Shown: positions 293 through 55,238 of the stretch, one piece after another
Position numbering within the stretch: position 1 is the stretch's first letter
Layout: each line of letters opens with the position of its first letter
Assembly (NCBI GenBank): GCA_041662745.1
Contig: JBAZRV010000004.1
Coordinates: 6,315 to 70,314 of the forward strand
Reading direction: 5' to 3'
Source: Patescibacteria group bacterium
GTDB lineage: Bacteria > Patescibacteriota > Patescibacteriia > 2-01-FULL-39-33
Length of the DNA: 64,000 nt
Notes under the pieces: generated by a model
The model's database searches: none
What the model was told of the DNA's origin: nothing
Seen by the model: only the letters and a program-made list of their open reading frames with translations
Made by a program: the position numbers and the translations under genes

Positions 293-1066
293 ATGGGTAA
301 TCCCACGGTGAGCCGTACCCTGTCGGTACACAAGGAACACGAAGTATTATTGAAACTGGAAGCCGCCGGCCTCGATGACGATCTGGCCCAAAAAGTCATT
401 GACTCCAAAGACAACGACTTGGCCATGAAAGTCATCCGGCTGATTCAGAACGGCGGATTCGAAGCGACCACGAGCCAGAAACGCGCCCGCGAAATCATGG
501 GCACGAACATGTTCGGCGTCGAGGAAGCTATCCTCCATTTCGGCGTCAATCCCAGCAAAGCGCAACTGGCCGCTCTCTCCGAGATTCCGTTCTCCGAGGC
601 GGTACTCGCTCAATGCAAAGACACGCACGTTTTGGTGGCAATCTTCCCGCTGTCCATCCTGGAGATCCGCGGCAAGGTAAAGCGCGGTCTGTTCTACAGC
701 TACGAGGACTCCTGGTATAACAAACAGTCGTTCGCGAAAGACCGCGGCGAAGTGGGTTGGCAACTCGTGCGCAAAACGCCGGTTGACAACTCAACGGCGA
801 AGAACTGGACGGAACAGCAAGCGTTGCTGGGCAAGGAAGACGAGACGCCGACCGCCCAGGTTCTGGCCTACACCATCATCGGGCATTTCCTGGCCACAGG
901 CGAACGGCTGTTCGAAAAGATCTACGTCCGTACGTCCACTGTGGTTTTGGTCGGCGGCCGCGTCCACCTCGGCTTCTTCGATGCTGCCGGCCTCGGGGTC
1001 TACGGCCGCTGGGCTGACGATCGCCATGGCGCTCTGGCCGTCTCCTCCGCCCGGAAGTCCAACTGA
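293..1066 (+). CDS. DGR target protein A, 257 aa, of unknown fold. Its C-terminal 38 codons are the variable repeat VR1a.
   Basis: Complete ORF whose 3' end (940-1054) aligns with TR1 (2522-2636). Every mismatch falls at a TR adenine. It is a paralog of the 1370-2149 ORF, sharing the REIMGTNMFGVEEA...GWQLVRKTPV core. Confidence 0.75.
   Translation: MGNPTVSRTLSVHKEHEVLLKLEAAGLDDDLAQKVIDSKDNDLAMKVIRLIQNGGFEATTSQKRAREIMGTNMFGVEEAILHFGVNPSKAQLAALSEIPFSEAVLAQCKDTHVLVAIFPLSILEIRGKVKRGLFYSYEDSWYNKQSFAKDRGEVGWQLVRKTPVDNSTAKNWTEQQALLGKEDETPTAQVLAYTIIGHFLATGERLFEKIYVRTSTVVLVGGRVHLGFFDAAGLGVYGRWADDRHGALAVSSARKSN
940..1054 (+). repeat. DGR variable repeat VR1a
   Basis: 115-bp near-copy of TR1. Differences occur only where TR1 has A, for example TR AAC vs VR GGC/CAC/TTC. 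The 3' GC-rich end GGCCGTCTCCTCCGCCCGG is identical in TR1 and both VRs, consistent with an IMH-like element. Confidence 0.8.
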
Positions 1067-1078
1067 ACCTTGAATCTT

Positions 1079-1140
1079 TGAGGGCTTGACCCTCTTGATT
1101 CCTTGAGCCTTCGGCGCGAATTTTTTTCGTCGCCGAAGGC
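1079..1140 (+). promoter_or_regulatory. Hairpin pair downstream of VR1a: GAGGG-CTTGA-CCCTC and GCCTTCGGCG...CGCCGAAGGC. It may be a DGR-associated stem-loop and/or a terminator. The same pair recurs at 2162-2222 after VR1b.
   Basis: Inverted repeats read directly from the sequence. The same structure occurs after both VR-bearing genes. Confidence 0.4.
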
Positions 1141-1369
1141 TCACTTCTTTCCTACTATAACCATTGATAGTTTAATAATATTAGTAATTGTCCCTTAAAA
1201 TAAATGTGATAAAAAAATAGATTGAAATGAGCGTTTTGGATGCCAAAGAATTTTGGTTTCTAAAACGCTCGTCTCATTCCGAGACAAGACGTAACAACGG
1301 GATCGTATTCCCATTTCTAGTCGCCCCAAACAAAAAAAACAAGGGGCTAACAGAAAAGGAGCACATACC

Positions 1370-2149
1370 ATGAAGTGGACAGAAATCCTTGCAGGAGAAT
1401 TGCATGCAGCCGAGCAACGCCTCAGGGTCGCCTTGGGCGACAAGGCCAGCGAAGTTGTCGAGAAAATCAACAGCGATGCCGCTTTTGCGGACTCGGTCGC
1501 CGCGCAAATCATTATGATGGCGGGCGAGGCTGACAAAAGTTCCACCAGCTTGAACCCGCAATGGTTGCGCGCCCGCGAAATCATGGGCACGAATATGTTC
1601 GGCGTCGAAGAAGCCATGAAGCATTTCGGCGTCAATCCCAGCAAAGCACAGCTCGCCGCTCTCGCCGAGATTCCCTTCTCGGAGGCAGTGCTCGAACAGT
1701 GCAAGAACACGCATGTCCTGGTTGCGGTCTTTCCGCTGTCGATTCTCGACATCCGGAGCAAGGCCAATGTCAAGAAGCTGTTCTACGACCAGTCGTGGTA
1801 CAATGGCGAGTCCTTCGCCAAAAGCCGCGGCAAGATCGGCTGGCAACTCGTGCGCAAAACGCCGGTTAGCAACTCAACGTCAAAGAATTGGAGCGAACAG
1901 CAAGCTCTGATCAGTCAAGACGATGAAACGCCGACCGCCCAGGTTCTGGCCTACACCATCATCGGGCATTTCCTGGCCACGGGTGAACGGCTGTTCGAAC
2001 GCATTTACGTCCGTACATCGTCTGTGGGTTCGGGCGGCAGCCGCGTCCCCCTCGGCGACTTCGCTGCTGCCGGCCTCCGGGTCTACGGCAGCTGGGATGA
2101 CCATCGCGATGGCGATCTGGCCGTCTCCTCCGCCCGGAAGTCCAACTGA
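1370..2149 (+). CDS. DGR target protein B, 259 aa, a tandem paralog of target A. Its C-terminal VR1b spans 2023-2137.
   Basis: The core is about 80% identical to ORF 293-1066, with a divergent N-terminal 65 aa. The 3' 115 bp match TR1 with about 16 substitutions, all at TR adenines. Confidence 0.75.
   Translation: MKWTEILAGELHAAEQRLRVALGDKASEVVEKINSDAAFADSVAAQIIMMAGEADKSSTSLNPQWLRAREIMGTNMFGVEEAMKHFGVNPSKAQLAALAEIPFSEAVLEQCKNTHVLVAVFPLSILDIRSKANVKKLFYDQSWYNGESFAKSRGKIGWQLVRKTPVSNSTSKNWSEQQALISQDDETPTAQVLAYTIIGHFLATGERLFERIYVRTSSVGSGGSRVPLGDFAAAGLRVYGSWDDHRDGDLAVSSARKSN
2023..2137 (+). repeat. DGR variable repeat VR1b
   Basis: Same structure as VR1a. All mismatches against TR1 are at A positions: AAC-AAC-AAC in TR1 becomes TAC-GGC-AGC. 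Confidence 0.8.
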
Positions 2150-2521
2150 ACCTTGAATCTTTGAGGGCTTGACCCTCTTGATTCCTTGAGCCTTCGGCGC
2201 GAATTTTTTCGCAATGCCGGAGGCTTATTTTCTTTTTAAACTATTTTTTGCTATAATTATTTTGTTCGCTAATGCAGGCGCGGTTACGGCTTCGCCTCGC
2301 GGACAGCTCATCTTTTTGAGACGTCACCAGAGTATCGCCGTCCACGGATTGCGATAGCGTGTGATAAAAAGATTGAGATGGAACTTCTTGCCCGCTCTTA
2401 GTGGAGGTGATCTTACGCTATCTGCTCCCGAATAAAATACAGGAGAGAAAGGACATAGGCCTGTTTTTTAATAGGCAGTAAACCTTAATTTCCAGTGATC
2501 CTGGCGAGAGCTGGCAAATAA

Positions 2522-2636
2522 TGTGGATTCGGACGGCAACCGCGTCAACCTCGGCAACTTCGATGCTACCGGCCTCAAGGTCAACAACAACTGGGATGAC
2601 AATCGCAATGGCGATCTGGCCGTCTCCTCCGCCCGG
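2522..2636 (+). repeat. DGR template repeat TR1, the 3' remnant of a third copy of the target gene. It is noncoding and asparagine(AAC)-rich in the target reading frame.
   Basis: Translates as DSDGNRVNLGNFDATGLKVNNNWDDNRNGDLAVSSAR, with AAC codons at every position that varies in VR1a and VR1b. The upstream gene body is degraded and no start codon remains. A hairpin AACACCCTCCTG-TTAC-AGGAGGGTGTT follows at 2659-2686. Confidence 0.8.
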
Positions 2637-2700
2637 CACTTCCATCTTTTCTTACTAAAACACCCTCCTGTTACAGGAGGGTGTTTCCATTTATTATGGC

Positions 2701-3348
2701 CTACAATTCCTTAGTTGACTTAATCCAGCCGCCGAGCATTCGGCCGACTTCATCGACATCCTGTTGCAATGTCACGTACTTATTAGCCGCTAAGGATTTA
2801 GTTTCTTTCATCAGCCGCAAGAATATCCTGAGGAAATTCAGCTTTAAGCTGGCTTTTTGCAAAACCGGCAGCTTGTCTGTTTTGGACAGCTGGCTGGCCA
2901 GCAATATGCTTTCCAAAATATCCAACAGGACATTTTCACAGCGCTGCCACAAAGTGTAGCGGTCTTGCTTAGCCACGCTTTTCCTGAGGATATAAAATTG
3001 CTTGTAGAGATCATAGATTTTTTTAAAGATCGGTATGTCAAAATCTTCCATATAATTATGAAAATTTATAAAGATATTTATAATGAGATGATTTCCCTGG
3101 AGAATTTGTTTTCCGCCTGGGATAAGTTCAAGATTGGCAATTTTTGCTGGAGTTGGATTTTCCTGATCAATGCTATAATAATTATTATATGCGATTAAAA
3201 CTAAACGCCCATCATCACCCCTTAATATTTTTAAAAGACCCAACTCTTGGTCAAGAATAATCTGACCTACAAGATTAAATTCAGTTATTTCGAATGATAC
3301 AAATTCATCCATATAATTATAATTAATACCTGTATTGAATATTACCAA
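2701..3348 (-). CDS. avd: Avd-like four-helix-bundle protein (23S rRNA IVS protein family) with an in-frame 99-aa N-terminal extension. The Avd module probably starts at the internal Met (2701-3051).
   Basis: The C-terminal 116 aa (IFKKIYDLYKQFYILRKS...DEVGRMLGGWIKS) resemble the four-helix-bundle/Avd family. It is paralogous to ORF 52348-52869 (NEIGRMLGGWRKR). It lies convergent with and immediately downstream of TR1. Confidence 0.6.
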   Translation of the reverse strand: MVIFNTGINYNYMDEFVSFEITEFNLVGQIILDQELGLLKILRGDDGRLVLIAYNNYYSIDQENPTPAKIANLELIPGGKQILQGNHLIINIFINFHNYMEDFDIPIFKKIYDLYKQFYILRKSVAKQDRYTLWQRCENVLLDILESILLASQLSKTDKLPVLQKASLKLNFLRIFLRLMKETKSLAANKYVTLQQDVDEVGRMLGGWIKSTKEL

Positions 3349-5174: not shown

Positions 5175-5258
5175 CCAATCGGTATTTGCCCAATTTTCGG
5201 GCAGAAGTTTCAGAATTCGCCAACCAGTTTTGGCCTGAAATTCAAATTTTTTGGCTTC
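5172..5258. repeat. Inverted repeat IR-B, left arm of a perfect 87-bp pair. The right arm is 6683-6769.
   Basis: CCGCCAATCGGTATTTGCCCAATTTTCGGGCAGAAGTTTCAGAATTCGCC...GGCTTC matches the reverse complement exactly at 6683-6769. Confidence 0.85.
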
Positions 5259-5320
5259 TGATTCTTAAAGAATTGCCAAAAGCGGGCTTTAAAAAAATTA
5301 TTAGTTTTAATCTTAAATAT

Positions 5321-6823
5321 ATGAAGTACTTTATTTACGCTCGCAAGTCCACTGACAGCGAAGAACGGCAGATCTTAAGCATTGAATCCCAGATTGCTGA
5401 GTTGTATGAATTTGCCGCCAAAGAAAAACTGGAAATCGCCGCTTCGCTGTGCGAAGCGAAAACCGCCAAAGAACCTGGCCGAACTGTGTTCGGAGAAATG
5501 CTGGATCGGATTTGCGCCGGCGAAGCCGGAGGAATTTTGGCTTGGCACCCGGATCGGCTGGCTAGAAATTCAATTGACGGAGGCAAAATCATTTATCTTT
5601 TGGACACAGGCCAGATCAAAGACCTAAAGTTTCCCACATTTTGGTTTGACAGCACACCGCAAGGAAAATTCATGATGAACATTGCCTTTGGCCAAAGCAA
5701 GTATTACATCGACAATTTAAGCGAGAATATACGGCGAGGCCATCGGGCTAAACTAAGAAAAGGGATTTGGCCAGTCTTTGCCCCGCTTGGCTATCTAAAT
5801 AATCACAGGACCAAAGGCATAGAATTAGACAGGGAAAGGGCGCCTTTGGTCAAAAAATGCTTTGAGCTATACGCTACGGGCGAATATACCCTCAAAGCCC
5901 TAAGAGATGTAATCAGCCAAGCGGGGCTAAGAAGCTACCGAGGCAATGTTCTGGCCGTGGCCTGTGTCCAAAGAATGCTCAAGAACTCGATCTACTATGG
6001 CCTATTCAAATTTAACGACGAATTGCATGAGGGAACGCACGAGCCGATTATTTCCAAGAAACTTTTTGATGAAGCTCAACAAGTAATGAGTAATCGAGGC
6101 AAGAAGAAACGAAAGCGAAAACACGAATTTGCTTTTTCTGGATTAATGAAATGTGGGGTCTGCGATTGCCTCATAACGGCGGAAAAACAAAAAGGCCATA
6201 ATTACTATCGTTGCACCAAGAAAAAACAAACCTGCGACGAAAAATGTCTGCGCGAAGAATTACTTGTTGAACAGATGAAAGAGATAATTCAAAAAGTTTC
6301 TTTGCCTGACGATTGGGCAAAAAATATGCTCGCCGAGATTGAGTTGGAACGAGAACAAGCAAGAAAAGACGGCATGATTTTTGGGCAAAAACTGGAAGTG
6401 AGAAAAACAGAAATCGAGCAAACCATGGAACGACTGCTTGATTTGTTTATTGAAGGCAAGCATATCGAGCCAGAGGAATATCACGCTAAAAAACAAAAAC
6501 TTCTCATCGAGAAGTGTGAGCTTAATCAACAAATCAAGGATTTTGCCCAAAAAGGAAATAATTGGCTCGAACCCATGAAAGAAATGATTTTAGCCAGCAG
6601 CCAAGCCAAAATTCTATTGTCGCGAGGCGACAATTCGCAAATCCGAGCATTTCTAAAAAATATCGGCTCGAACTTCATTTTGGAAGCCAAAAAATTTGAA
6701 TTTCAGGCCAAAACTGGTTGGCGAATTCTGAAACTTCTGCCCGAAAATTGGGCAAATACCGATTGGCGGAGAGAGAGGGATTCGAACCCTCGGTACGCCC
6801 ATAATAGACGTACAACGGTTTAG
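5321..6823 (+). CDS. Large serine recombinase: resolvase/invertase catalytic domain, recombinase domain and zinc ribbon. The C-terminus is encoded within IR-B and the tRNA-Ser 3' end.
   Basis: N-terminal YARKSTDSEERQILSIESQ...HPDRLARN is a serine-recombinase catalytic motif. CGVCDC...YYRCTKKK is a Zn ribbon. The ORF reads through the IR-B right arm into the tRNA. Confidence 0.8.
   Translation: MKYFIYARKSTDSEERQILSIESQIAELYEFAAKEKLEIAASLCEAKTAKEPGRTVFGEMLDRICAGEAGGILAWHPDRLARNSIDGGKIIYLLDTGQIKDLKFPTFWFDSTPQGKFMMNIAFGQSKYYIDNLSENIRRGHRAKLRKGIWPVFAPLGYLNNHRTKGIELDRERAPLVKKCFELYATGEYTLKALRDVISQAGLRSYRGNVLAVACVQRMLKNSIYYGLFKFNDELHEGTHEPIISKKLFDEAQQVMSNRGKKKRKRKHEFAFSGLMKCGVCDCLITAEKQKGHNYYRCTKKKQTCDEKCLREELLVEQMKEIIQKVSLPDDWAKNMLAEIELEREQARKDGMIFGQKLEVRKTEIEQTMERLLDLFIEGKHIEPEEYHAKKQKLLIEKCELNQQIKDFAQKGNNWLEPMKEMILASSQAKILLSRGDNSQIRAFLKNIGSNFILEAKKFEFQAKTGWRILKLLPENWANTDWRRERDSNPRYAHNRRTTV
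6683..6769. repeat. Inverted repeat IR-B, right arm. It overlaps the 3' end of tRNA-Ser by 6 nt.
   Basis: Exact reverse complement of 5172-5258. Confidence 0.85.
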
Positions 6824-6858
6824 CAAACCGCCGCCTTCAGCCACTCGGCCATCTCTCC
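6764..6858 (-). tRNA. tRNA-Ser (anticodon GCU) with a long variable arm
   Basis: The reverse complement reads GGAGAGATGGCCGAGTGGCTGAAGGCGGCGGTTTGCTAAACCG...GGGTTCGAATCCCTCTCTCTCCGCCA. The anticodon loop is TT-GCT-AA, and CCA is encoded. Confidence 0.8.
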
Positions 6859-40648: not shown

Positions 40649-40654
40649 ATATAT

Positions 40655-40990
40655 TTTTATTTTATTTTATATTGTCATTCCCGCGTACCTTGCCTACCGA
40701 CAGGCAGGGGCGGGAATCCAGGTTTTCTTGTCGTCCTGATCGTAATGAGGGATCTAAAGTTAAATTCAAATTTATTTCTGATACCTTTCTCTATGAGAAA
40801 GGTATCTCCAAAGAGTCGCGAGCGAAGCATAAATCATGGCCTCTTGTCATTCTGAGCAAAGCGAAGAATCTCAGGTTTAAACTTTAGATCCTTCGTTTTC
40901 GCTCCCGCCTCGCTTCCGCTTCACTCGGGATGACGAAAAGGAAACTGAATCTAATTCTTGAATTCTCTGGTCGTTCCCGCATAAAGTCGC
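40655..40990. repeat. Cluster of MITE-like palindromic elements in the parB-parA spacer
   Basis: GTCATTCCCGCG...GGCGGGAATCCAGGTT at about 40676-40726. GTCATTCTGAGCAAAGCGAAGAATCTCAGGTTT at about 40826-40860. An inverted partner CCTTCGTTTTCGCTCCCGCCTCGCTTCCGCTTCACTCGGGATGAC at about 40883-40932. The family also has a copy at 51886-51925. Confidence 0.6.
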
Positions 40991-41037
40991 GCAAGATTTT
41001 GTTATGCTCGCACATTGGAAACAAATTTGAAACAACT

Positions 41038-47314: not shown

Positions 47315-47359
47315 ATAATATTTTATTTTCCCTCTCTCCTTAAAAAGATGAGACTGGTG

Positions 47360-47441
47360 TGCCCGAGGAGAGACTCGAACTCTCACATATTGCTATACAC
47401 GATTTTGAGTCGTGCGCGTCTACCAGTTCCGCCACTCGGGC
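47360..47441 (-). tRNA. tRNA-Leu (CAA)
   Basis: The reverse complement reads GCCCGAGTGGCGGAACTGGTAGACGCGCACGACTCAAAATCGTG, followed by a long variable arm and GAGAGTTCGAGTCTCTCCTCGGGCA. Confidence 0.8.
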
Positions 47442-47446
47442 CTGAG

Positions 47447-47685
47447 TTATAACAAACTTTTTAACCATTCTTTACCACAACCTGACTTTAAATATTTTTC
47501 TCTTTGTCTTGCATCTATTCTCGTACTATACTTTTCTGTTATAATCATTTTAAATGGTCGATAAAATCTTGTTGTCCTCTCTCGTCCATTATTGTGGCGA
47601 CTAAATCTGTCATCAAAATCAGAGGTTTGACCGACATAAATATAATTATGTTTTATACTTTGCAAGGCATAAACAGTATACTCCA
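47447..47685 (-). CDS. GIY-YIG nuclease-superfamily protein (YhbQ/UPF0213-like), about 79 aa from the internal Met
   Basis: MEYTVYALQSIKHNYIYVGQTSDFDDRFSRHNNG...REKYLKSGCGKEW. The ORF-track start at 47749 lies inside the tRNA-derived sequence. Confidence 0.6.
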
Positions 47686-47699
47686 TAAGAAAAATATTT

Positions 47700-47755
47700 A
47701 AAGTCGTGCGCGCCTGCCTGCCGGCAGGCAGGTCTACCAGTTCCGCCACTCGGGC
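47700..47755 (-). other. Duplicated 5' half of tRNA-Leu (pseudo-tRNA or att-like remnant) carrying a 19-nt palindromic insertion
   Basis: The reverse complement reads GCCCGAGTGGCGGAACTGGTAGAC[CTGCCTGCCGGCAGGCAGG]CGCGCACGACTT. Outside the insertion it is identical to tRNA-Leu positions 1-37, and it ends inside the anticodon loop. Confidence 0.7.
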
Positions 47756-47883
47756 AATTTAGACTTTATTTATTTTATACTATTTTTTGAAAATTGTCAA
47801 ATATTTCAGAGTTTGATATAATTAAAACATTGTAAATCTGCCTATTTGAGCCTATTGTCATTCAAATAGCAGACCAAAACCAT

Positions 47884-51422: not shown

Positions 51423-52481
51423 TTAGCAAGTATAAGCCAAATTAGCAATTTTTCGTTGTAACTTATAGCTCTGGCCGTGACTCAATAAACCCAAATATGA
51501 ATTTATGGTCTCCAAACTATGGTTTCCTCTCACTCGCCTGAACATTCTTCTTTTACTCGTCGTCCGAAACACCCGATGGTCAAAAAAAGTCACCCAGCCA
51601 AGAAAGTCCAAACCGGAGTTCAGGGTTTTAATGAATAACTTATCAGGATGAAGCATCAGCTTCATTTTATCTCTCAAATATTCATCAATTATTGGAATAA
51701 TATTTTCCAAATATTCTTTATCGTCAGCCATAATCACGAAATCATCGGCATAACGGATATAATGCTTGACTTGCAATTTATGTTTGACGAATTGATCAAA
51801 CTTGTTCATGTAAATATTAACCAAGAGTTGTGAGGTCAGATTGCCTAATGGCAGACCCCTACCACCGCCATTATTCCCACTCTCCCTCTTGTCATTCCCG
51901 CGGAGACGGGAATCCAGGTTATCTTCAATATTATCAAAACTGTCAATTACTTCATCCAATAATCCTAAAATACTTTTATCCGGGATATACTCGGCCAGAA
52001 TCTCTTTCAATATCCTATGGTCAATATTGGCAAAAAATTTCCTGATGTCACCCTTCAAAATCCAGCAAGTGCGGGTATTATTTTTGCTGGCGGCATAAGC
52101 GAATTCCCTGAACCGAGCCAGGGCCTTGTGCGTGCCCTTGCCCAGTCGGCAAGAATAGGAATCGGCAATGAAAGTCCGATCAAAAAACGGATACAAAATC
52201 CGATAAATCGCATGGTGAACCAATCTATCGCGGACAGACGCCTTATGAATTTGCCGCGGTTTGGGATCGCAGATCTTAAAGGCCTGGTAGCCGCCGTGGC
52301 GATAAACACCGGTTGCCAAATACCGATGCAATGCGATAAGATTATCCATGAGGCGCAATTGGAATTCCTGCGCGTCTTTTCTGCCCCTTTTGCCCCTGAC
52401 AAATTCCTGCCAAGCCAATAATAAATTATCAAGACAAATAATATCTTCAAAAGTATGGCTCAATTTGATTTTCCCGTTCAT
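51423..52481 (-). CDS. Diversity-generating retroelement (DGR) reverse transcriptase. It contains an in-frame MITE-like insertion.
   Basis: YADD box (YIRYADDFVIM). Motif 4 is LGNLTSQ, the DGR-type I/LGxxxSQ rather than the group II QGxxxSP. SYSCRLGKGTHKAL motif. There is no room for intron domains V/VI. TR, avd and VR are adjacent. RBS AAAGGA precedes the ATG at 52481. Confidence 0.75.
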   Translation of the reverse strand: MNGKIKLSHTFEDIICLDNLLLAWQEFVRGKRGRKDAQEFQLRLMDNLIALHRYLATGVYRHGGYQAFKICDPKPRQIHKASVRDRLVHHAIYRILYPFFDRTFIADSYSCRLGKGTHKALARFREFAYAASKNNTRTCWILKGDIRKFFANIDHRILKEILAEYIPDKSILGLLDEVIDSFDNIEDNLDSRLRGNDKRESGNNGGGRGLPLGNLTSQLLVNIYMNKFDQFVKHKLQVKHYIRYADDFVIMADDKEYLENIIPIIDEYLRDKMKLMLHPDKLFIKTLNSGLDFLGWVTFFDHRVFRTTSKRRMFRRVRGNHSLETINSYLGLLSHGQSYKLQRKIANLAYTC

Positions 52482-52869
52482 AATAATTCCTTTAATTACC
52501 CCCCCCCCGACGGAAGATTTATCAATCATCAAAAAACTCGTTGAGACCTTTAAGCTCTGGCACGGCTATGTAAAGCATTTCCCCAAAACCTCCCGCTATT
52601 CGTTGGGCGGAAAAATAGACGGCCTGTTTTCTGATCTGATTGAATCGGCATACACCGCCGGCTATCTGCCCCAAACGGAAAAACTGCCGTTCATAGAAAA
52701 ATCCATCGACAAACTGAATTTGCTTAATTTTTTTATGCAAATCGCCTGGGAGCTGAAGGCGTTTGACAACAACAAATACAAAAATATTTCCTTATTGCTT
52801 AATGAAATCGGCCGAATGCTGGGCGGCTGGCGCAAACGGATAAAAAAAGAAACTTCCGCCCCAAAATAA
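52348..52869 (+). CDS. avd: Avd-like four-helix-bundle protein. The functional start is probably near 52515; no ATG is in frame there, so a non-canonical start or frameshift is possible.
   Basis: The C-terminal 115 aa (IKKLVETFKLWHGY...NEIGRMLGGWRKRIKK) resemble the four-helix-bundle/Avd family. It is located between the RT and TR2. Confidence 0.55.
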   Translation: MRRNWNSCASFLPLLPLTNSCQANNKLSRQIISSKVWLNLIFPFIIIPLITPPPTEDLSIIKKLVETFKLWHGYVKHFPKTSRYSLGGKIDGLFSDLIESAYTAGYLPQTEKLPFIEKSIDKLNLLNFFMQIAWELKAFDNNKYKNISLLLNEIGRMLGGWRKRIKKETSAPK

Positions 52870-52889: not shown

Positions 52890-53020
52890 ATTTGCGGAAA
52901 CAAACGCGAAACGGTTGTCGCTATTGTAGAAATTGTCAGGCCTGCCATTGTTGGCATTAAGCCACGGCTCATCGTCATTACGTTTGACGTTGAACACATT
53001 CGGGTTGCCGTCCGAGTCGG
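52890..53020 (-). repeat. DGR template repeat TR2
   Basis: 131 bp, about 80% identical to 53352-53482. In the target frame it encodes NDDEPWLNANNGRPDNFYNSDNRFAFVSAN, rich in AAC codons. About 25 mismatches to the VR, all at TR adenines on the minus strand. Confidence 0.85.
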
Positions 53021-53342
53021 TTAAATGTCCAAAACGCCGCCAAAACCACCGCCCCTTGATCCGCCGGCTGACGGACTCTCGGGACTGAATCTTATCCGTG
53101 AGCTAAACTCACTTAGCGCCTTAGACCAAGTATCTTCATTTTTAGCAATTATAATTGATACTGGCAAAAGGCGTGCCCGTTGCCACTCCGCAAATTATAA
53201 TTGCAGAATTCGATCATCCGAAGCCGTAACCGCAGATATGTCAATCTACTATCCTAAATATATTTTAACAAACAAAAATAAAAATAAAAAGGAATTAAGG
53301 GTTTAAGGATTAAAGAATAACAATACTTAAGATTTTAAGGAT

Positions 53343-55238
53343 TTAAGTGTTACTTGCGGAAACAAACGCGAAACGGCTGACGCCATAGTAGAAACGGCCA
53401 GGCCCGCCACAGTAGGCACCAAGCCACGGCTCACCGCCACTACGCTCGACGTCGAACACACTCGGGTCGCCGCCCGAGCCGGAAATTGGTTCCATACCGA
53501 TTAAAATCCATTCGCCCAGCGGTTGGTCAGTATATTGTAAACGAAGCTGGGGGCCGGTTTCCGGCGGGCAGAATTCTAAGCCGAGTTTCTTGGCTTGTTC
53601 GTAAATATCCTTGAGCTTGGCGCCGCCTTTGAAACCCAAATCCGCAACAGCCAAGATAATTAACTTTTCTTTGGTTTCTTTTTTGGCCACGGCAAATTCC
53701 GGCTTGCCCATTATGTCTTTGGCCCAATCACTGGTCTGCCCGCCTTTTTTCTCTATGGCTTTAATGAAATCATCTTTGGTTTTTAGTCCGGTGCCCAGTT
53801 CAATGGTTTTCTGTTTGATTCGGCCCTCGGGGAATTCAGTGTAAATATGTTCCAGGTTTGAGGGCAATAGTTTGAAGATGTTGAGGAATAATTCGCCGAC
53901 ATAGACCTTAATGTCTTTTTCTTGTTTAAGCGCTTGCTCTAATTCCTGTTTGTTGTGGATAATCTGGCTCGGTTTGCAGTCAAAAATTACGAGCATGTCG
54001 GCATTCTTGTCCCGTTGACCCCGCAGTTCTTTGATGCGCGGATCTTTCTGGTAGCCAAAGCCCTCAATCGGCGAATTTATTTCGTAAAGGAAGATGAGAT
54101 CTTCTTTGTCTAATGACTTACCTTGCCGGATTTTCTTATCCAGAGCGGTTAAGCGGCTCATGTCCTGCGATTTCTTCTCGTAGCTCTCATGTCCGGGCAG
54201 AGTTCTGGCTTTATCTTGGGCGATATCCACTAAAGCCGGTTCAAGATTTTGTTCCGCATTAATACCCCCAATTTCAGCTATTTGATCATTCTGCATTCTG
54301 ATGGCGATGCGGGGAATCTTAGGTTGGCCTTGATCATTATTGCTGTAATACACATAAAAATCGCCTTCTTTTAATTGCGCCTGGGCCGTGCTTTCTCCGG
54401 CCGTGCACCAGCCCGTGCCGTGGCCTTGGAGTGACTGGCATAGTTTTTGGTAGTCGTCGCCTTGATCGTATTTGACCCATTGGCCCTGGATATTTTCCTT
54501 TTGCTCTTGGCTGGCGGGGGTAACTTTTTCAATGGCATAGGCGTAAAGCTTGGCGAAATTGGCGCCTTCCAGTATTTTGCCCAGTTCTGCATTGATTGGC
54601 GAAGACGCGTTATCCACACCATGCCGTTTATTGACAATATCCAAAACCAAAGCCAAGGCCTCGCGGTTAAGATCGGGAAAAACGCCCCGAGTGAATTGGC
54701 TGCGTTTTTTGAATTCGTGCTTCTGCTTATCAAATTCAGCCAGGCCAGTCACGGAACGAAGGGCAAAATACTTGAGCCAAGTCGGATACATGGCATCTTC
54801 CGACGACAGGTAATCAAACCAGTTGCTTAAGCCGGCCTCCTGGTCTTTGACCGCGGATTCCAAAATCTGCTCCTGCATTTCCCGGGTTACTTCAATATCG
54901 CCATGGCCTTGTTCGCGGGCGACGCGCTTGTCCAAATCAAAAAAATTACCCGGTAAATCGTCAATGGTTTTATGGCGCAAGGGAATGGCCGAATCTAGGA
55001 TTTTATTCTTAAGGTAATCCAACCTGAATTCCCTAAGATTTTGGCCCTTGAGATATTCCTCTTCCGGCGTAGAAAAAATTTCCTCCAAACGATCCAGGTA
55101 AGTGCCAAGTCGGCCTTCCGGAGTATTAGCGACTTTTTCGCCGACACGGATTTTTTTGCGCGCTGAAGCAGACGCCACTTCTGGAGTTTTTTGCAGATCT
55201 TCAAATTTATTATGGAGAAAACGTTCTGGGGAGGGCAT
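53343..55238 (-). CDS. DGR target protein, 631 aa, with a C-terminal C-type-lectin/FGE-like variable domain and no signal peptide
   Basis: Complete ORF. The last 45 codons are the VR. The C-terminal ...GxxRxxxGxSRFAFV pattern is typical of DGR CLec-fold targets. Confidence 0.7.
   Translation of the reverse strand: MPSPERFLHNKFEDLQKTPEVASASARKKIRVGEKVANTPEGRLGTYLDRLEEIFSTPEEEYLKGQNLREFRLDYLKNKILDSAIPLRHKTIDDLPGNFFDLDKRVAREQGHGDIEVTREMQEQILESAVKDQEAGLSNWFDYLSSEDAMYPTWLKYFALRSVTGLAEFDKQKHEFKKRSQFTRGVFPDLNREALALVLDIVNKRHGVDNASSPINAELGKILEGANFAKLYAYAIEKVTPASQEQKENIQGQWVKYDQGDDYQKLCQSLQGHGTGWCTAGESTAQAQLKEGDFYVYYSNNDQGQPKIPRIAIRMQNDQIAEIGGINAEQNLEPALVDIAQDKARTLPGHESYEKKSQDMSRLTALDKKIRQGKSLDKEDLIFLYEINSPIEGFGYQKDPRIKELRGQRDKNADMLVIFDCKPSQIIHNKQELEQALKQEKDIKVYVGELFLNIFKLLPSNLEHIYTEFPEGRIKQKTIELGTGLKTKDDFIKAIEKKGGQTSDWAKDIMGKPEFAVAKKETKEKLIILAVADLGFKGGAKLKDIYEQAKKLGLEFCPPETGPQLRLQYTDQPLGEWILIGMEPISGSGGDPSVFDVERSGGEPWLGAYCGGPGRFYYGVSRFAFVSASNT
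53352..53482 (-). repeat. DGR variable repeat VR2 at the 3' end of the 631-aa target gene
   Basis: Encodes SGGEPWLGAYCGGPGRFYYGVSRFAFVSAS. Every difference from TR2 is at an adenine-templated position. The 3' 23 nt (TTGCGGAAACAAACGCGAAACGG on the plus strand) are identical in TR and VR, consistent with an IMH. Confidence 0.85.

What the first reader, a model, noticed from the sequence alone, without database searches (positions are those of the whole stretch)
51886..51925. MITE-like palindrome inserted in-frame within the DGR reverse transcriptase
The element GTCATTCCCGCGGAGACGGGAATCCAGGTT is a member of the palindrome family clustered in the parB-parA spacer (40676-40726 and others). It lies inside the RT ORF and is translated in-frame as ...DSRLRGNDKRESGNN..., just upstream of RT motif 4. 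The reading frame is kept. Either the RT tolerates about 12 extra residues in the fingers/palm loop, or the RT is a recently disrupted pseudogene. This bears on whether the two DGR loci are currently active.
Basis: seen in the sequence. Interest (0 to 1): 0.55.

Follow-up and report, generated by a model that had tools for sequence, protein, structure and literature searches.

The report
Neisseria-type hairpin repeat inside DGR RT
A 28-30 base hairpin repeat of the family first described in Neisseria (dRS3/NTS) sits in frame in the one insertion-tolerant loop of a Patescibacteria diversity-generating-retroelement reverse transcriptase, and the enzyme appears to have stayed functional.

Summary
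GTCATTCCCGCGGAGACGGGAATCCAGGTT lies at 51891-51920, inside the minus-strand RT gene (51423-52481). It reads N-L-D-S-R-L-R-G-N-D, directly upstream of motif 4 (GLPLGNLTSQ).

It is not a classical MITE. It is a slightly decayed copy (25/28) of the dRS3/NTS hairpin repeat, which small GIY-YIG "Ssn" nucleases recognise as single-stranded DNA. Relatives' RTs carry copies matching the Neisseria consensus 27/28 or 28/28 at the same site.

It is an insertion. The syntenic closest relative lacks 72 nt there, and 100 of 118 homologues have a short linker, mostly 6-8 residues. This linker is the only internal indel site in the family, and about 15% of these RTs carry hairpin-forming inserts of several repeat families there.

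The RT is not a pseudogene:
- dN/dS is 0.09-0.27.
- All catalytic motifs are intact.
- The AlphaFold model is confident except for the inserted loop.
- The insert is shared with lineages at dS 0.25-1.8.
- Template and variable repeats differ at adenines only (0/96 other sites).

A Parcubacteria leucyl-tRNA synthetase shows similar in-frame repeats. How the repeat moves, and whether this genome has its nuclease, remain unknown.

The parts
51891..51918 (+). NTS/dRS3-type hairpin repeat, 28-nt core. The forward (Ssn-cleavable) NTS strand is the window + strand, i.e. antisense to the RT. The core reads LDSRLRGND in the RT frame; two further bases (51919-51920) complete the first asparagine codon, giving 10 codons, NLDSRLRGND, over 51891-51920.
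   Evidence: It matches the published Neisseria NTS consensus at 25/28 positions, counted over 51890-51917 because the consensus starts one base upstream. PMC11893778 gives the consensus.
51894..51913 (.). Strict dRS3 20-mer ATTCCCGCGGAGACGGGAAT (ATTCCC-N8-GGGAAT): a 7-bp stem plus a C.A mismatch
51870..51890 (-). 21-nt extra segment AAGAGGGAGAGTGGGAATAAT (KRESGNN). It looks like a partial second right arm. It is present only in the window and in L004.
51858..51935 (-). Whole 26-codon linker between DSF and GLPLGN (DNIEDNLDSRLRGNDKRESGNNGGGR). The insert-free relative L001 is 72 nt shorter here. The AlphaFold model gives a low-confidence coil.
51423..52481 (-). DGR reverse transcriptase gene (352 aa, P0001)
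51828..51857 (-). RT motif 4, GLPLGNLTSQ, with the DGR-type LGxxxSQ signature. It corresponds to bRT residues that contact the template base and the dNTP.
51741..51761 (-). RT motif 5, YIRYADD (catalytic YxDD)
52519..52869 (+). Avd-like accessory gene, divergent from the RT. The mechanical ORF is 52348-52869; the start is inferred from the 116-aa L001 homologue.
52890..53023 (-). Template repeat (TR) of the RT-linked DGR
53343..55238 (-). Target gene (631 aa). Its variable repeat at about 53352-53485 differs from the TR at 26 of 38 adenines and at 0 of 96 other sites.
40674..40726 (+). Intergenic long-form NTS copy with identical ends. A second palindrome (40689-40708) is nested in its loop. 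It lies in a decayed cluster of related hairpins in the parB-parA spacer (40649-41037).
47447..47686 (-). Small single-domain GIY-YIG nuclease ORF (79 aa). It is a possible but unproven relative of the Ssn nucleases that recognise NTS.
293..3348 (.). Second DGR cassette without its own RT: two targets (VRs 940-1054 and 2023-2137), TR 2522-2636 and Avd 2701-3348(-). It presumably uses the same RT in trans.

Best explanation
The palindrome is a copy of the dRS3/NTS class of short hairpin repeats, also called Ssn-related motifs (SRM). This repeat family occurs in many bacterial phyla. In Neisseria it is bound and cut, as single-stranded DNA, by a small GIY-YIG nuclease called SsnA.

A copy landed in the linker between RT motifs 3 and 4 of an ancestral Patescibacteria DGR reverse transcriptase. 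By my recollection this is the position called RT3a in group II intron RTs. The copy is antisense to the gene and sits in the stop-free, hydrophilic frame N-L-D-S-R-L-R-G-N-D.

This linker is the only place in the enzyme where length changes are seen in the family (2 to 65 residues), so the insertion survived as a disordered loop. The RT stayed under purifying selection and has kept driving adenine mutagenesis. The insert later evolved fast in its non-palindromic parts. It kept its stem through compensatory changes or gene conversion. It seems to have been deleted again in some lineages.

Shown here: family identity, insertion status, location, age relative to sister lineages, purifying selection, hairpin conservation, and adenine-only TR/VR differences.

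Inferred: the mode of insertion (unknown for this repeat family), surface exposure of the loop, and that this RT rather than another one performed the recent homing.
For: Family identity:
- The ends are identical to the intergenic copy at 40674-40726.
- The strict dRS3 pattern is met.
- The same motif is found in at least 120 genome stretches from many phyla, including Neisseria and 8 Patescibacteria records.
- PMC11893778 defines NTS as CGTCATTCCCGCGMAVGCGGGAATCYRG. RT-embedded copies match it 28/28 (L126), 27/28 (L003, L205) and 25/28 (window).

Insertion status:
- The syntenic relative L001 lacks 72 nt.
- 100 of 118 homologues have short linkers, 94 of them 6-8 residues.
- This is the only internal indel site in a 331-column core.
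- 14 of 80 metagenomic RT loci carry inserts here, and 14 of 18 long linkers fold with z < -2.

Function retained:
- dN/dS is 0.10, 0.09 and 0.27 against L001, L003 and L004. The 26 insert codons hold 18 of the 50 non-synonymous differences to L004.
- The AlphaFold model has mean pLDDT 83.9, with values below 50 mainly at residues 188-205 (within the insert) and 296-303. Its best structural match is Bordetella bRT 8ub7, TM-score 0.76/0.81.
- TR/VR: 26 of 38 adenines differ and 0 of 96 other sites differ. Cassette A shows 0/90 and 0/82. L004, whose RT also carries the insert, shows 0/90.

Hairpin kept:
- 98.4% of cells are paired and 3 pairs show compensatory changes; 2 of 500 shuffles reach this.
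Against: - The window copy fails the published degenerate SRM pattern and the one-mismatch NTS rule. Its hairpin is only marginally more stable than shuffles.
- No cd10448-type Ssn gene is seen in the 64 kb. The only GIY-YIG ORF is distant (33% identity over 64 residues to an NTS-adjacent Ssn-like protein) and is not flanked by NTS.
- Whether the 2-residue linkers (P0003, P0008, P0009, P0016) are deletions or the ancestral state is not resolved. The tree is a simple neighbour-joining tree.
- The insert ends one residue before the motif-4 segment that contacts template and dNTP in bRT, so some effect on activity or fidelity cannot be excluded.
- Activity is inferred from sequence, not measured. 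Another RT elsewhere in the genome could supply activity.
Confidence: 0.8

Rival explanations
1. The insertion has been co-opted. Either the DNA hairpin inside the RT gene keeps working as a nuclease or recombination signal, for example limiting replacement of the DGR by incoming DNA, which is how NTS acts in Neisseria transformation. Or the charged loop contributes to binding of RNA or Avd. This can coexist with the main explanation.
For: - The stem is conserved at the DNA level while amino acids change: L004 has CCCG/CGGG changed to CCTG/CAGG, turning R-L-R-G into C-F-R-R.
- All four RT lineages inferred to be independent carry the repeat in the same orientation and frame.
- NTS in transforming DNA lowers its integration in an SsnA-dependent way in Neisseria (PMC11893778).
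- The loop abuts motif 4.
Against: - The insert evolves nearly neutrally between the window and L004 (dN/dS 0.69).
- The window copy has lost its closing base pair, and L205 has an uncompensated arm change.
- Close relatives do without the insert, and 85% of homologues have none.
- No cognate Ssn gene was found in the window.
- Stem conservation can come from gene conversion with other genomic copies.
Confidence: 0.12
2. The RT is a recently disrupted pseudogene. The insert next to motif 4 abolished activity, and the open frame has simply not decayed yet.
For: - The insert lies one residue before the segment that contacts the template base and dNTP in bRT.
- NTS repeats are rarely inside genes in Neisseria (2%; PMC11893778).
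Against: - The same insert architecture is present in L004 (dS 0.25), and the core in L003 (dS about 1.8). dN/dS between insert-bearing RTs is 0.09-0.27.
- All invariant motif residues are kept.
- 0 of 96 non-adenine TR/VR mismatches were seen. Roughly 3 to 15 would be expected if homing had stopped at the window/L004 split (my estimate).
- Linker lengths of 2 to 65 residues occur in intact homologues.
Confidence: 0.06
3. The segment is a native lineage-specific loop, or an assembly artefact, that only resembles the intergenic palindrome by chance.
For: The hairpin is short, and the strict dRS3 pattern alone is not significant in 64 kb (1 match against 0.4 expected at up to 1 mismatch).
Against: - 26 flanking or arm bases are identical to the 40674 copy, with 0 expected by shuffling.
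- There are 28/28 and 27/28 matches to an independently defined consensus in sister RTs.
- Presence and absence alternate among close relatives.
- The insert occurs in independent assemblies from NCBI/ENA, Logan and JGI.
Confidence: 0.02

Closest known systems
Neisseria dRS3 / NTS repeats and the wider Ssn-related motifs (SRM), targets of SsnA GIY-YIG single-strand nucleases (Nat Commun 2025;16:2388, PMC11893778)
   Same: - Same sequence family: GTCATTCCCGCG-loop-CGGGAATCCAG. The ATTCCC-N8-GGGAAT core is met.
- Hairpin-forming and oriented by non-palindromic flanks.
- Clustered decayed copies in an intergenic spacer.
- Spread across many phyla.
   Different: - Here the copy is inside a conserved enzyme, in frame and translated. 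In N. meningitidis only 2% are inside genes, and in-frame copies are not discussed in the paper.
- The host is Patescibacteria, which the paper does not mention.
- The window copy is decayed (25/28) and fails the published SRM pattern.
- No cd10448 Ssn gene was found nearby.
Rickettsia palindromic elements (RPE) inserted in frame in protein-coding genes (Ogata et al. 2000, recalled from memory; mentioned in PMC10969869)
   Same: A selfish palindromic repeat is inserted in frame into functional, conserved proteins at permissive loops, and the host protein remains under selection. A Parcubacteria LeuRS with three such clusters suggests the phenomenon may be more general.
   Different: RPEs are about 100-150 bp and belong to a different sequence family, restricted to Rickettsia. 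Here the unit is 28-30 nt and belongs to a cross-phylum family. Sequence relatedness was not tested.
REP/BIME repeats with RAYT (IS200/IS605-like) transposases
   Same: Short extragenic hairpin repeats that cluster in mosaics and are thought to be mobilised as single-stranded DNA by a dedicated small nuclease.
   Different: No RAYT is present. The associated enzyme class is GIY-YIG, not HUH. REPs are typically extragenic and species-specific.
Bordetella phage DGR reverse transcriptase bRT (PDB 8ub7) and the CPR 'B3' DGR architecture (PMC5758913)
   Same: - RT fold (TM-score 0.76/0.81), motif-4 LGxxxSQ signature and YxDD.
- Divergent Avd, and TR/VR with adenine-only differences.
- Gene order typical of CPR DGRs.
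   Different: bRT and 85% of CPR homologues go almost directly from the preceding helix into motif 4. This RT has a 26-residue repeat-derived loop there.
RT3a insertion of group II intron and non-LTR RTs (nomenclature recalled from memory)
   Same: Extra sequence at the same topological position, between RT motifs 3 and 4. The Eubacterium rectale group II RT has about 17 residues there in the alignment.
   Different: RT3a is a conserved, structured, vertically inherited segment. Here the extra sequence is a recent, variable insert derived from a mobile repeat.

Membership tests
dRS3 / NTS / SRM hairpin repeats | dRS3 core ATTCCC-N8-GGGAAT | tested here: met
   51894-51913 is an exact match and the only one in the window.
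dRS3 / NTS / SRM hairpin repeats | 28-nt NTS consensus CGTCATTCCCGCGMAVGCGGGAATCYRG with at most 1 mismatch (the paper's criterion) | tested here: not met
   The window copy has 3 mismatches (positions 1, 14, 17). Sister RT copies have 0 (L126) and 1 (L003, L205). The insert's lineage is NTS, but this copy is decayed.
dRS3 / NTS / SRM hairpin repeats | Published degenerate SRM pattern HGTCWYN(0-2)YYVSBRHN(0-5)WNVSBRGN(0-2)RNCYNB | tested here: not met
   0 matches in the window (0.15 expected). The RT copy fails because of the G>A change at the loop-closing pair. The long copy fails because its loop is 25 nt.
dRS3 / NTS / SRM hairpin repeats | Forms a hairpin, with the stem maintained among copies | tested here: met
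   -11.4 kcal/mol. Across 8 RT-embedded copies, 98.4% of cells are paired and 3 pairs show compensatory changes.
dRS3 / NTS / SRM hairpin repeats | Multi-copy, clustered near genes | tested here: inconclusive
   Only 2 copies with canonical ends, plus a decayed cluster in the parB-parA spacer, in 64 kb. The rest of the genome was not available.
dRS3 / NTS / SRM hairpin repeats | Genome encodes a cognate Ssn (cd10448 GIY-YIG) nuclease, often flanked by the repeat | tested here: inconclusive
   Window GIY-YIG ORF 47447-47686 (Pfam PF01541, E = 4.7e-17) is 33% identical over 64 residues to an NTS-adjacent Ssn-like protein of L040. It lacks that group's GFTxxY motif (seen directly in the sequences) and is not flanked by NTS.
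dRS3 / NTS / SRM hairpin repeats | Bound and cut as single-stranded DNA by Ssn | not testable with these tools
   Needs biochemistry.
MITE | Terminal inverted repeats derived from a parent IS, a target-site duplication, and a size of roughly 50-500 bp | tested here: not met
   The unit is 28-30 nt. No flanking duplication is visible in the empty and filled alleles. No parent IS is known.
Diversity-generating retroelement RT | RT domain with motif-4 [LIV]GxxxSQ and YxDD; adjacent Avd; TR/VR pair differing at TR adenines | tested here: met
   PF00078, E = 4e-24; LGNLTSQ and YADD; bAvd; 26 of 38 adenines and 0 of 96 other sites differ; best fold match is bRT.
Rickettsia palindromic elements | Member of the RPE sequence families (about 100-150 bp) | not tested
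   Only the behaviour (in-frame insertion into functional genes) is compared. The length differs.

The most novel reading that the evidence does not exclude
Cross-phylum hairpin repeats, including exact Neisseria-type NTS, may colonise essential Patescibacteria proteins in frame as a general and so far undescribed process, as RPEs do in Rickettsia. Examples here are the DGR RT and a leucyl-tRNA synthetase.

In DGR RTs the motif 3-4 linker would be a recurrent landing pad for at least four repeat families. NTS would always be oriented so that the nuclease-cleavable strand is the transcription template strand. That would point to targeted, strand-specific insertion, or to Ssn-imposed selection. 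It would give a natural experiment on how these repeats move, and a ready-made permissive site for engineering DGR RTs.
Probability: 0.3. Interest if true: 0.7.

Novelty: new variant of a known kind. Interest (0 to 1): 0.5.

Why it matters
- DGR activity.
- DGR engineering. It marks the motif 3-4 linker as a naturally validated permissive site (2 to 65 residues) next to the catalytic pocket. This is useful for tagging or engineering DGR RTs.
- Reach of the repeat family. It extends the recently defined NTS/SRM repeat family to Patescibacteria and to translated, in-frame positions.
- Repeat mobility. Filled, empty and variant alleles at one site in closely related genomes are the kind of material needed to work out how these repeats move and are lost.
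- Protein evolution. With the LeuRS example, it suggests that repeat-derived loops are a source of protein length variation in ultra-small bacteria.

Tried and rejected
- The repeat finder (inverted, seed 6) did not report the 7-bp stem. The palindrome was confirmed by pattern search and folding instead.
- The published SRM pattern found nothing in the window, so family assignment rests on the dRS3 core, the exact ends and sister copies.
- Counting NTS copies 'inside ORFs' by stop-free span in the 120 genome loci was abandoned. High-GC genomes give long spurious frames. Only low-GC Patescibacteria loci were inspected by eye. Most copies there are at gene starts or intergenic; one is truly intragenic (LeuRS).
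- NCBIfam gave no useful family for the GIY-YIG ORF.
- Rfam gave only chance-level hits for both repeat regions.
- P0005's contig could not be retrieved.
- Peptide and sequence strings from the repeat found only one paper, a Neisseria construct sequence. Searches for in-frame palindromes in CPR or insertions in DGR RTs found nothing relevant.
The distance of the loop from RNA and Avd could therefore not be measured.
- The phage collection holds only distant RTs, below 40% identity.
- Intron, intein or translational-bypass readings were considered. They were rejected as unsupported: the segment is 72 nt, stop-free, in frame, and its peptide is conserved.
Full report
**Observation.** The 30-mer GTCATTCCCGCGGAGACGGGAATCCAGGTT is at window 51891-51920 on the + strand. 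It lies inside a minus-strand ORF (51423-52532). The ATG of the deposited model P0001 is at 52481. The ORF is a reverse transcriptase (Pfam RVT_1, E = 4e-24). Read on the coding strand, the element gives N-L-D-S-R-L-R-G-N-D. This is followed by KRESGNNGGGR and then GLPLGNLTSQ, which is RT motif 4. The frame is open throughout. The element shares an exact 12-nt left end and an exact 14-nt right end with a longer element at 40674-40726 in the parB-parA spacer. The joint pattern occurs twice, against zero in 100 shuffles. The stem is 7 bp plus a C.A mismatch and is only modestly stable (-11.4 kcal/mol, z = -1.9).

**What the palindrome is.** Hits came from Nitrospirota, Alpha-, Beta-, Gamma- and Deltaproteobacteria, Chloroflexota, Gemmatimonadota, Bacteroidota, Planctomycetota, Actinomycetes, Neisseria, Pseudomonas, Massilia and eight Patescibacteria records. 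Most were a 28-nt form. A literature search by sequence led to Neisseria and then to PMC11893778. That paper re-describes the classical dRS3 repeat (ATTCCC-N8-GGGAAT) as the core of a 28-nt 'Neisseria transformation sequence', CGTCATTCCCGCGMAVGCGGGAATCYRG. It shows that the small GIY-YIG nuclease SsnA binds and cuts this sequence only as single-stranded DNA and only on the forward strand. It shows that the repeat and Ssn genes co-occur across phyla, often as NTS-ssnA-NTS. It states that only 2% of NTS copies lie inside genes in N. meningitidis. I recovered that association in my own sample: Ssn-like ORFs lie next to the repeat in L040, L046, L061 and L098. The window copy meets the strict dRS3 definition. 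It is a decayed NTS, matching 25/28, with the loop-closing G changed to A. It fails the paper's degenerate SRM pattern. No Rfam family matches. 'MITE-like' is therefore imprecise. The element is a dRS3/NTS-class hairpin repeat.

**It is an insertion, at the only indel-tolerant site of the enzyme.** The closest insert-free homologue, P0003 (89% identity), lies on a 958-kb contig with the same gene order: Avd, RT, NYN, M16 peptidase, glycosyltransferase, ParA, ParB. It has DSF-NG-GLPLGN where the window has a 26-residue linker, a difference of 72 nt. In 118 aligned homologues:
- 100 have short linkers (94 of them 6-8 residues, one of 5, five of 2).
- 8 carry NTS-type peptides.
- 7 carry a different repeat (PLLxKEGxGEV...).
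- 3 carry other inserts.

This linker is the only internal position with insertions of 4 or more residues in a 331-column core. Among 80 RT loci fetched from metagenomes, 14 have inserts of 14-39 residues at this site. Of 18 long linkers examined as DNA, 14 fold better than shuffles with z < -2. They belong to several unrelated palindrome families.

At the DNA level the RT-embedded NTS copies are unmistakable. L126 matches the Neisseria consensus 28/28. L003 and L205 match 27/28. L208 matches 26/28. L207 has two copies, one in each orientation. Across the eight copies, 98.4% of stem cells pair and three pairs show compensatory double changes (2 of 500 shuffles reach this). The single unpaired cell is the window's C.A.

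**Age and history.** A neighbour-joining tree built without the linker columns places the window RT in a clade of ten:
- Five members carry the NTS insert: P0001, P0002 and P0005 with 26-residue linkers, and P0004 and P0006 with 19.
- Four have unusually short 2-residue linkers (NG or DR).
- One carries the other repeat.

The window and L004 share the whole 72-nt architecture: linker, NTS, a 21-nt segment that looks like a partial second right arm, then GGxGGxAGx. The insert therefore predates their split (dS 0.25), and its core probably predates the split from L003 (dS about 1.8). The 2-residue linkers are most simply read as later deletions that removed the repeat and part of the native linker. 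The opposite polarity cannot be excluded. NTS copies in P0007/L126, P0031 and P0023 sit among canonical-linker relatives and look like independent gains. All of them have the antisense orientation and the LDSRLRGND frame. P0023 has an additional sense copy. Five of the six frames of the NTS are stop-free, and this frame is hydrophilic.

**Is the RT alive?**
- dN/dS is 0.10 (against L001), 0.09 (L003) and 0.27 (L004). For L004, 18 of the 50 non-synonymous differences fall in the 26 insert codons, where dN/dS is 0.69. The insert is close to neutral and the rest is constrained.
- All family-invariant residues are present, including LGNLTSQ and YADD.
- The AlphaFold model is confident (mean pLDDT 83.9, pTM 0.78). 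The exceptions are residues 188-205, which lie within the inserted linker (183-208) and are predicted as coil, and 296-303. Its best structural match is the Bordetella DGR RT 8ub7 (E = 5e-23, TM-score 0.76/0.81). Sequence alignment to bRT breaks exactly at the insert.
- The RT-linked template and variable repeats differ at 26 of 38 TR adenines and at 0 of 96 other sites. The second cassette at 293-3348 has no RT of its own and shows 0/90 and 0/82 in its cores. L004, whose RT also has the insert, shows 0/90.
- The TRs of L004 and L001 are homologous but differ at non-adenine sites, and each VR follows its own TR. Homing therefore continued after those lineages diverged.
- If homing in the window lineage had stopped at the window/L004 split, I estimate roughly 3 to 15 non-adenine TR/VR mismatches would be expected. 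None is seen. This is an inference. It assumes that no second RT exists elsewhere in the genome.

**Caveat on position.** In bRT the residues equivalent to the motif-4 segment (I181, G182, Q187) contact the template base and the incoming dNTP. The insert ends one residue before that segment. Tolerance is shown by evolution, not by structure. I could not superpose coordinates or find residue-level information for this linker in the cryo-EM preprint. The position corresponds to the RT3a insertion of group II intron RTs (nomenclature from memory). The E. rectale group II RT has about 17 residues there.

**How it got there and whether it does anything.** The mechanism by which NTS/SRM repeats spread is not known. 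The Ssn paper only notes the IS-like NTS-ssnA-NTS layout and the analogy with REP/RAYT. The window has a 79-residue single-domain GIY-YIG ORF at 47447-47686 (Pfam E = 4.7e-17). It is only 33% identical over 64 residues to an NTS-adjacent Ssn-like protein and is not flanked by NTS, so its membership in the Ssn family is open.

My preferred reading is a selection filter. Repeats hit many places, and only in-frame, stop-free, hydrophilic insertions in the one permissive loop survive. The uniform orientation in four lineages, and the compensatory stem change in L004 that alters the peptide (RLRG to CFRR), leave room for two alternatives: a strand-specific insertion preference, or continuing DNA-level constraint (Ssn binding, or gene conversion with other copies). 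I rate these as minor, non-exclusive alternatives.

**Generality.** In a Parcubacteria genome (L101), a 916-residue leucyl-tRNA synthetase is confirmed by Pfam catalytic, editing and anticodon-binding domains. It carries three clusters of in-frame hairpin-repeat peptides. One contains ...CHSRSASVIPAQAGIQ...LDPRFHGDD..., i.e. a forward NTS plus a reverse NTS variant. The behaviour therefore resembles Rickettsia palindromic elements, but with a 28-30 nt cross-phylum repeat. I found no paper describing in-frame NTS/SRM copies, palindromic inserts in Patescibacteria proteins, or insertions in DGR RTs. The searchable library is incomplete, so this is absence of evidence only.

**Verdict.**
It is a tolerated in-frame insertion of a repeat-family member, not a pseudogene and not a MITE.
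- The repeat family and the principle of in-frame palindromic insertion are both known.
- The combination appears to be a new variant: an exact Neisseria-type NTS, translated, in a Patescibacteria DGR RT, at a recurrent single-site hot spot shared with other hairpin families.
- Interest is moderate.

Noticed in passing
window 47359-47757: A 79-aa GIY-YIG nuclease ORF (47447-47686, -) sits between an intact tRNA-Leu(caa) (47359-47441, -) and a duplicated 5' half of the same tRNA (47704-47757). The duplicated half is interrupted by a perfect 20-nt palindrome, CCTGCCTGCCGGCAGGCAGG (47713-47732). This looks like a small mobile GIY-YIG cassette integrated into the tRNA gene with restoration of the tRNA.
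   Followed up: partly
window 40689-40708 within 40674-40726: The long intergenic NTS copy carries, nested in its loop, a diverged copy (3 mismatches) of the same CCTGCC...GGCAGG palindrome found next to the GIY-YIG gene. One hairpin repeat is therefore inserted into the loop of another.
   Followed up: partly
window 40649-41037 vs L001 10864-10919: The parB-parA spacer is about 390 nt here and is filled with decayed GTCATTC...GAATC-type hairpins in both orientations. In the syntenic relative it is 57 nt with one partial copy (CCCGCCTACGCGGGAATGA). This resembles a Neisseria intergenic mosaic element.
   Followed up: partly
window 293-3348: A second DGR cassette has two paralogous targets (293-1066 and 1370-2149, with VRs at 940-1054 and 2023-2137), TR 2522-2636 and an Avd-like gene 2701-3348(-). 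It has no RT. The only RT in the window is 49 kb away. TR/VR differences are at adenines only.
   Followed up: partly
window 5186-6858: The 3' end of a large serine-recombinase-like ORF (5186-6823, +) overlaps tRNA-Ser(gct) (6764-6858, -). GC content is 0.515 in the first 2 kb against about 0.42 just after. The RT-less DGR cassette may lie on an integrated element.
   Followed up: no
L101 (LCEC01000010.1, Parcubacteria GW2011_GWB1_42_6), minus-strand ORF spanning locus 2255-2302: A leucyl-tRNA synthetase has three clusters of in-frame hairpin-repeat-derived peptides (CHCEESEGRRSNP...SPRPDGARDDG; VIASSERAKQSR...EIASSQAPRNDD; CHSRSASVIPAQAGIQ...LDPRFHGDD...LGMT). They lie at or just before the start of the editing-domain match, at its end, and in the stretch after it.
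   Followed up: partly
L145, L153, L165, L183, L187, L192/L195, L193, L197/L204; P0012, P0017, P0021, P0038, P0046, P0049, P0093: Other Patescibacteria DGR RTs carry inserts from unrelated hairpin families at the same linker (e.g. PLLSKEGxGEV...PPLT..KGGE; IYAMAEM; SPQPSPDYGRGG). The longest linker is 65 residues.
   Followed up: partly
L203 4083-6431: A 782-residue ORF about 100 nt downstream of a related DGR RT contains a GIY-YIG-like region (phmmer E = 1e-9 to the window GIY-YIG ORF).
   Followed up: no
L001 1942-4999: The syntenic relative has two tandem target-TR-Avd units (VR/TR pairs at 2482/2958 and 3967/4469) upstream of its single RT. The window has one unit there and the other cassette 49 kb away. 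DGR cassettes are being rearranged between close relatives.
   Followed up: no
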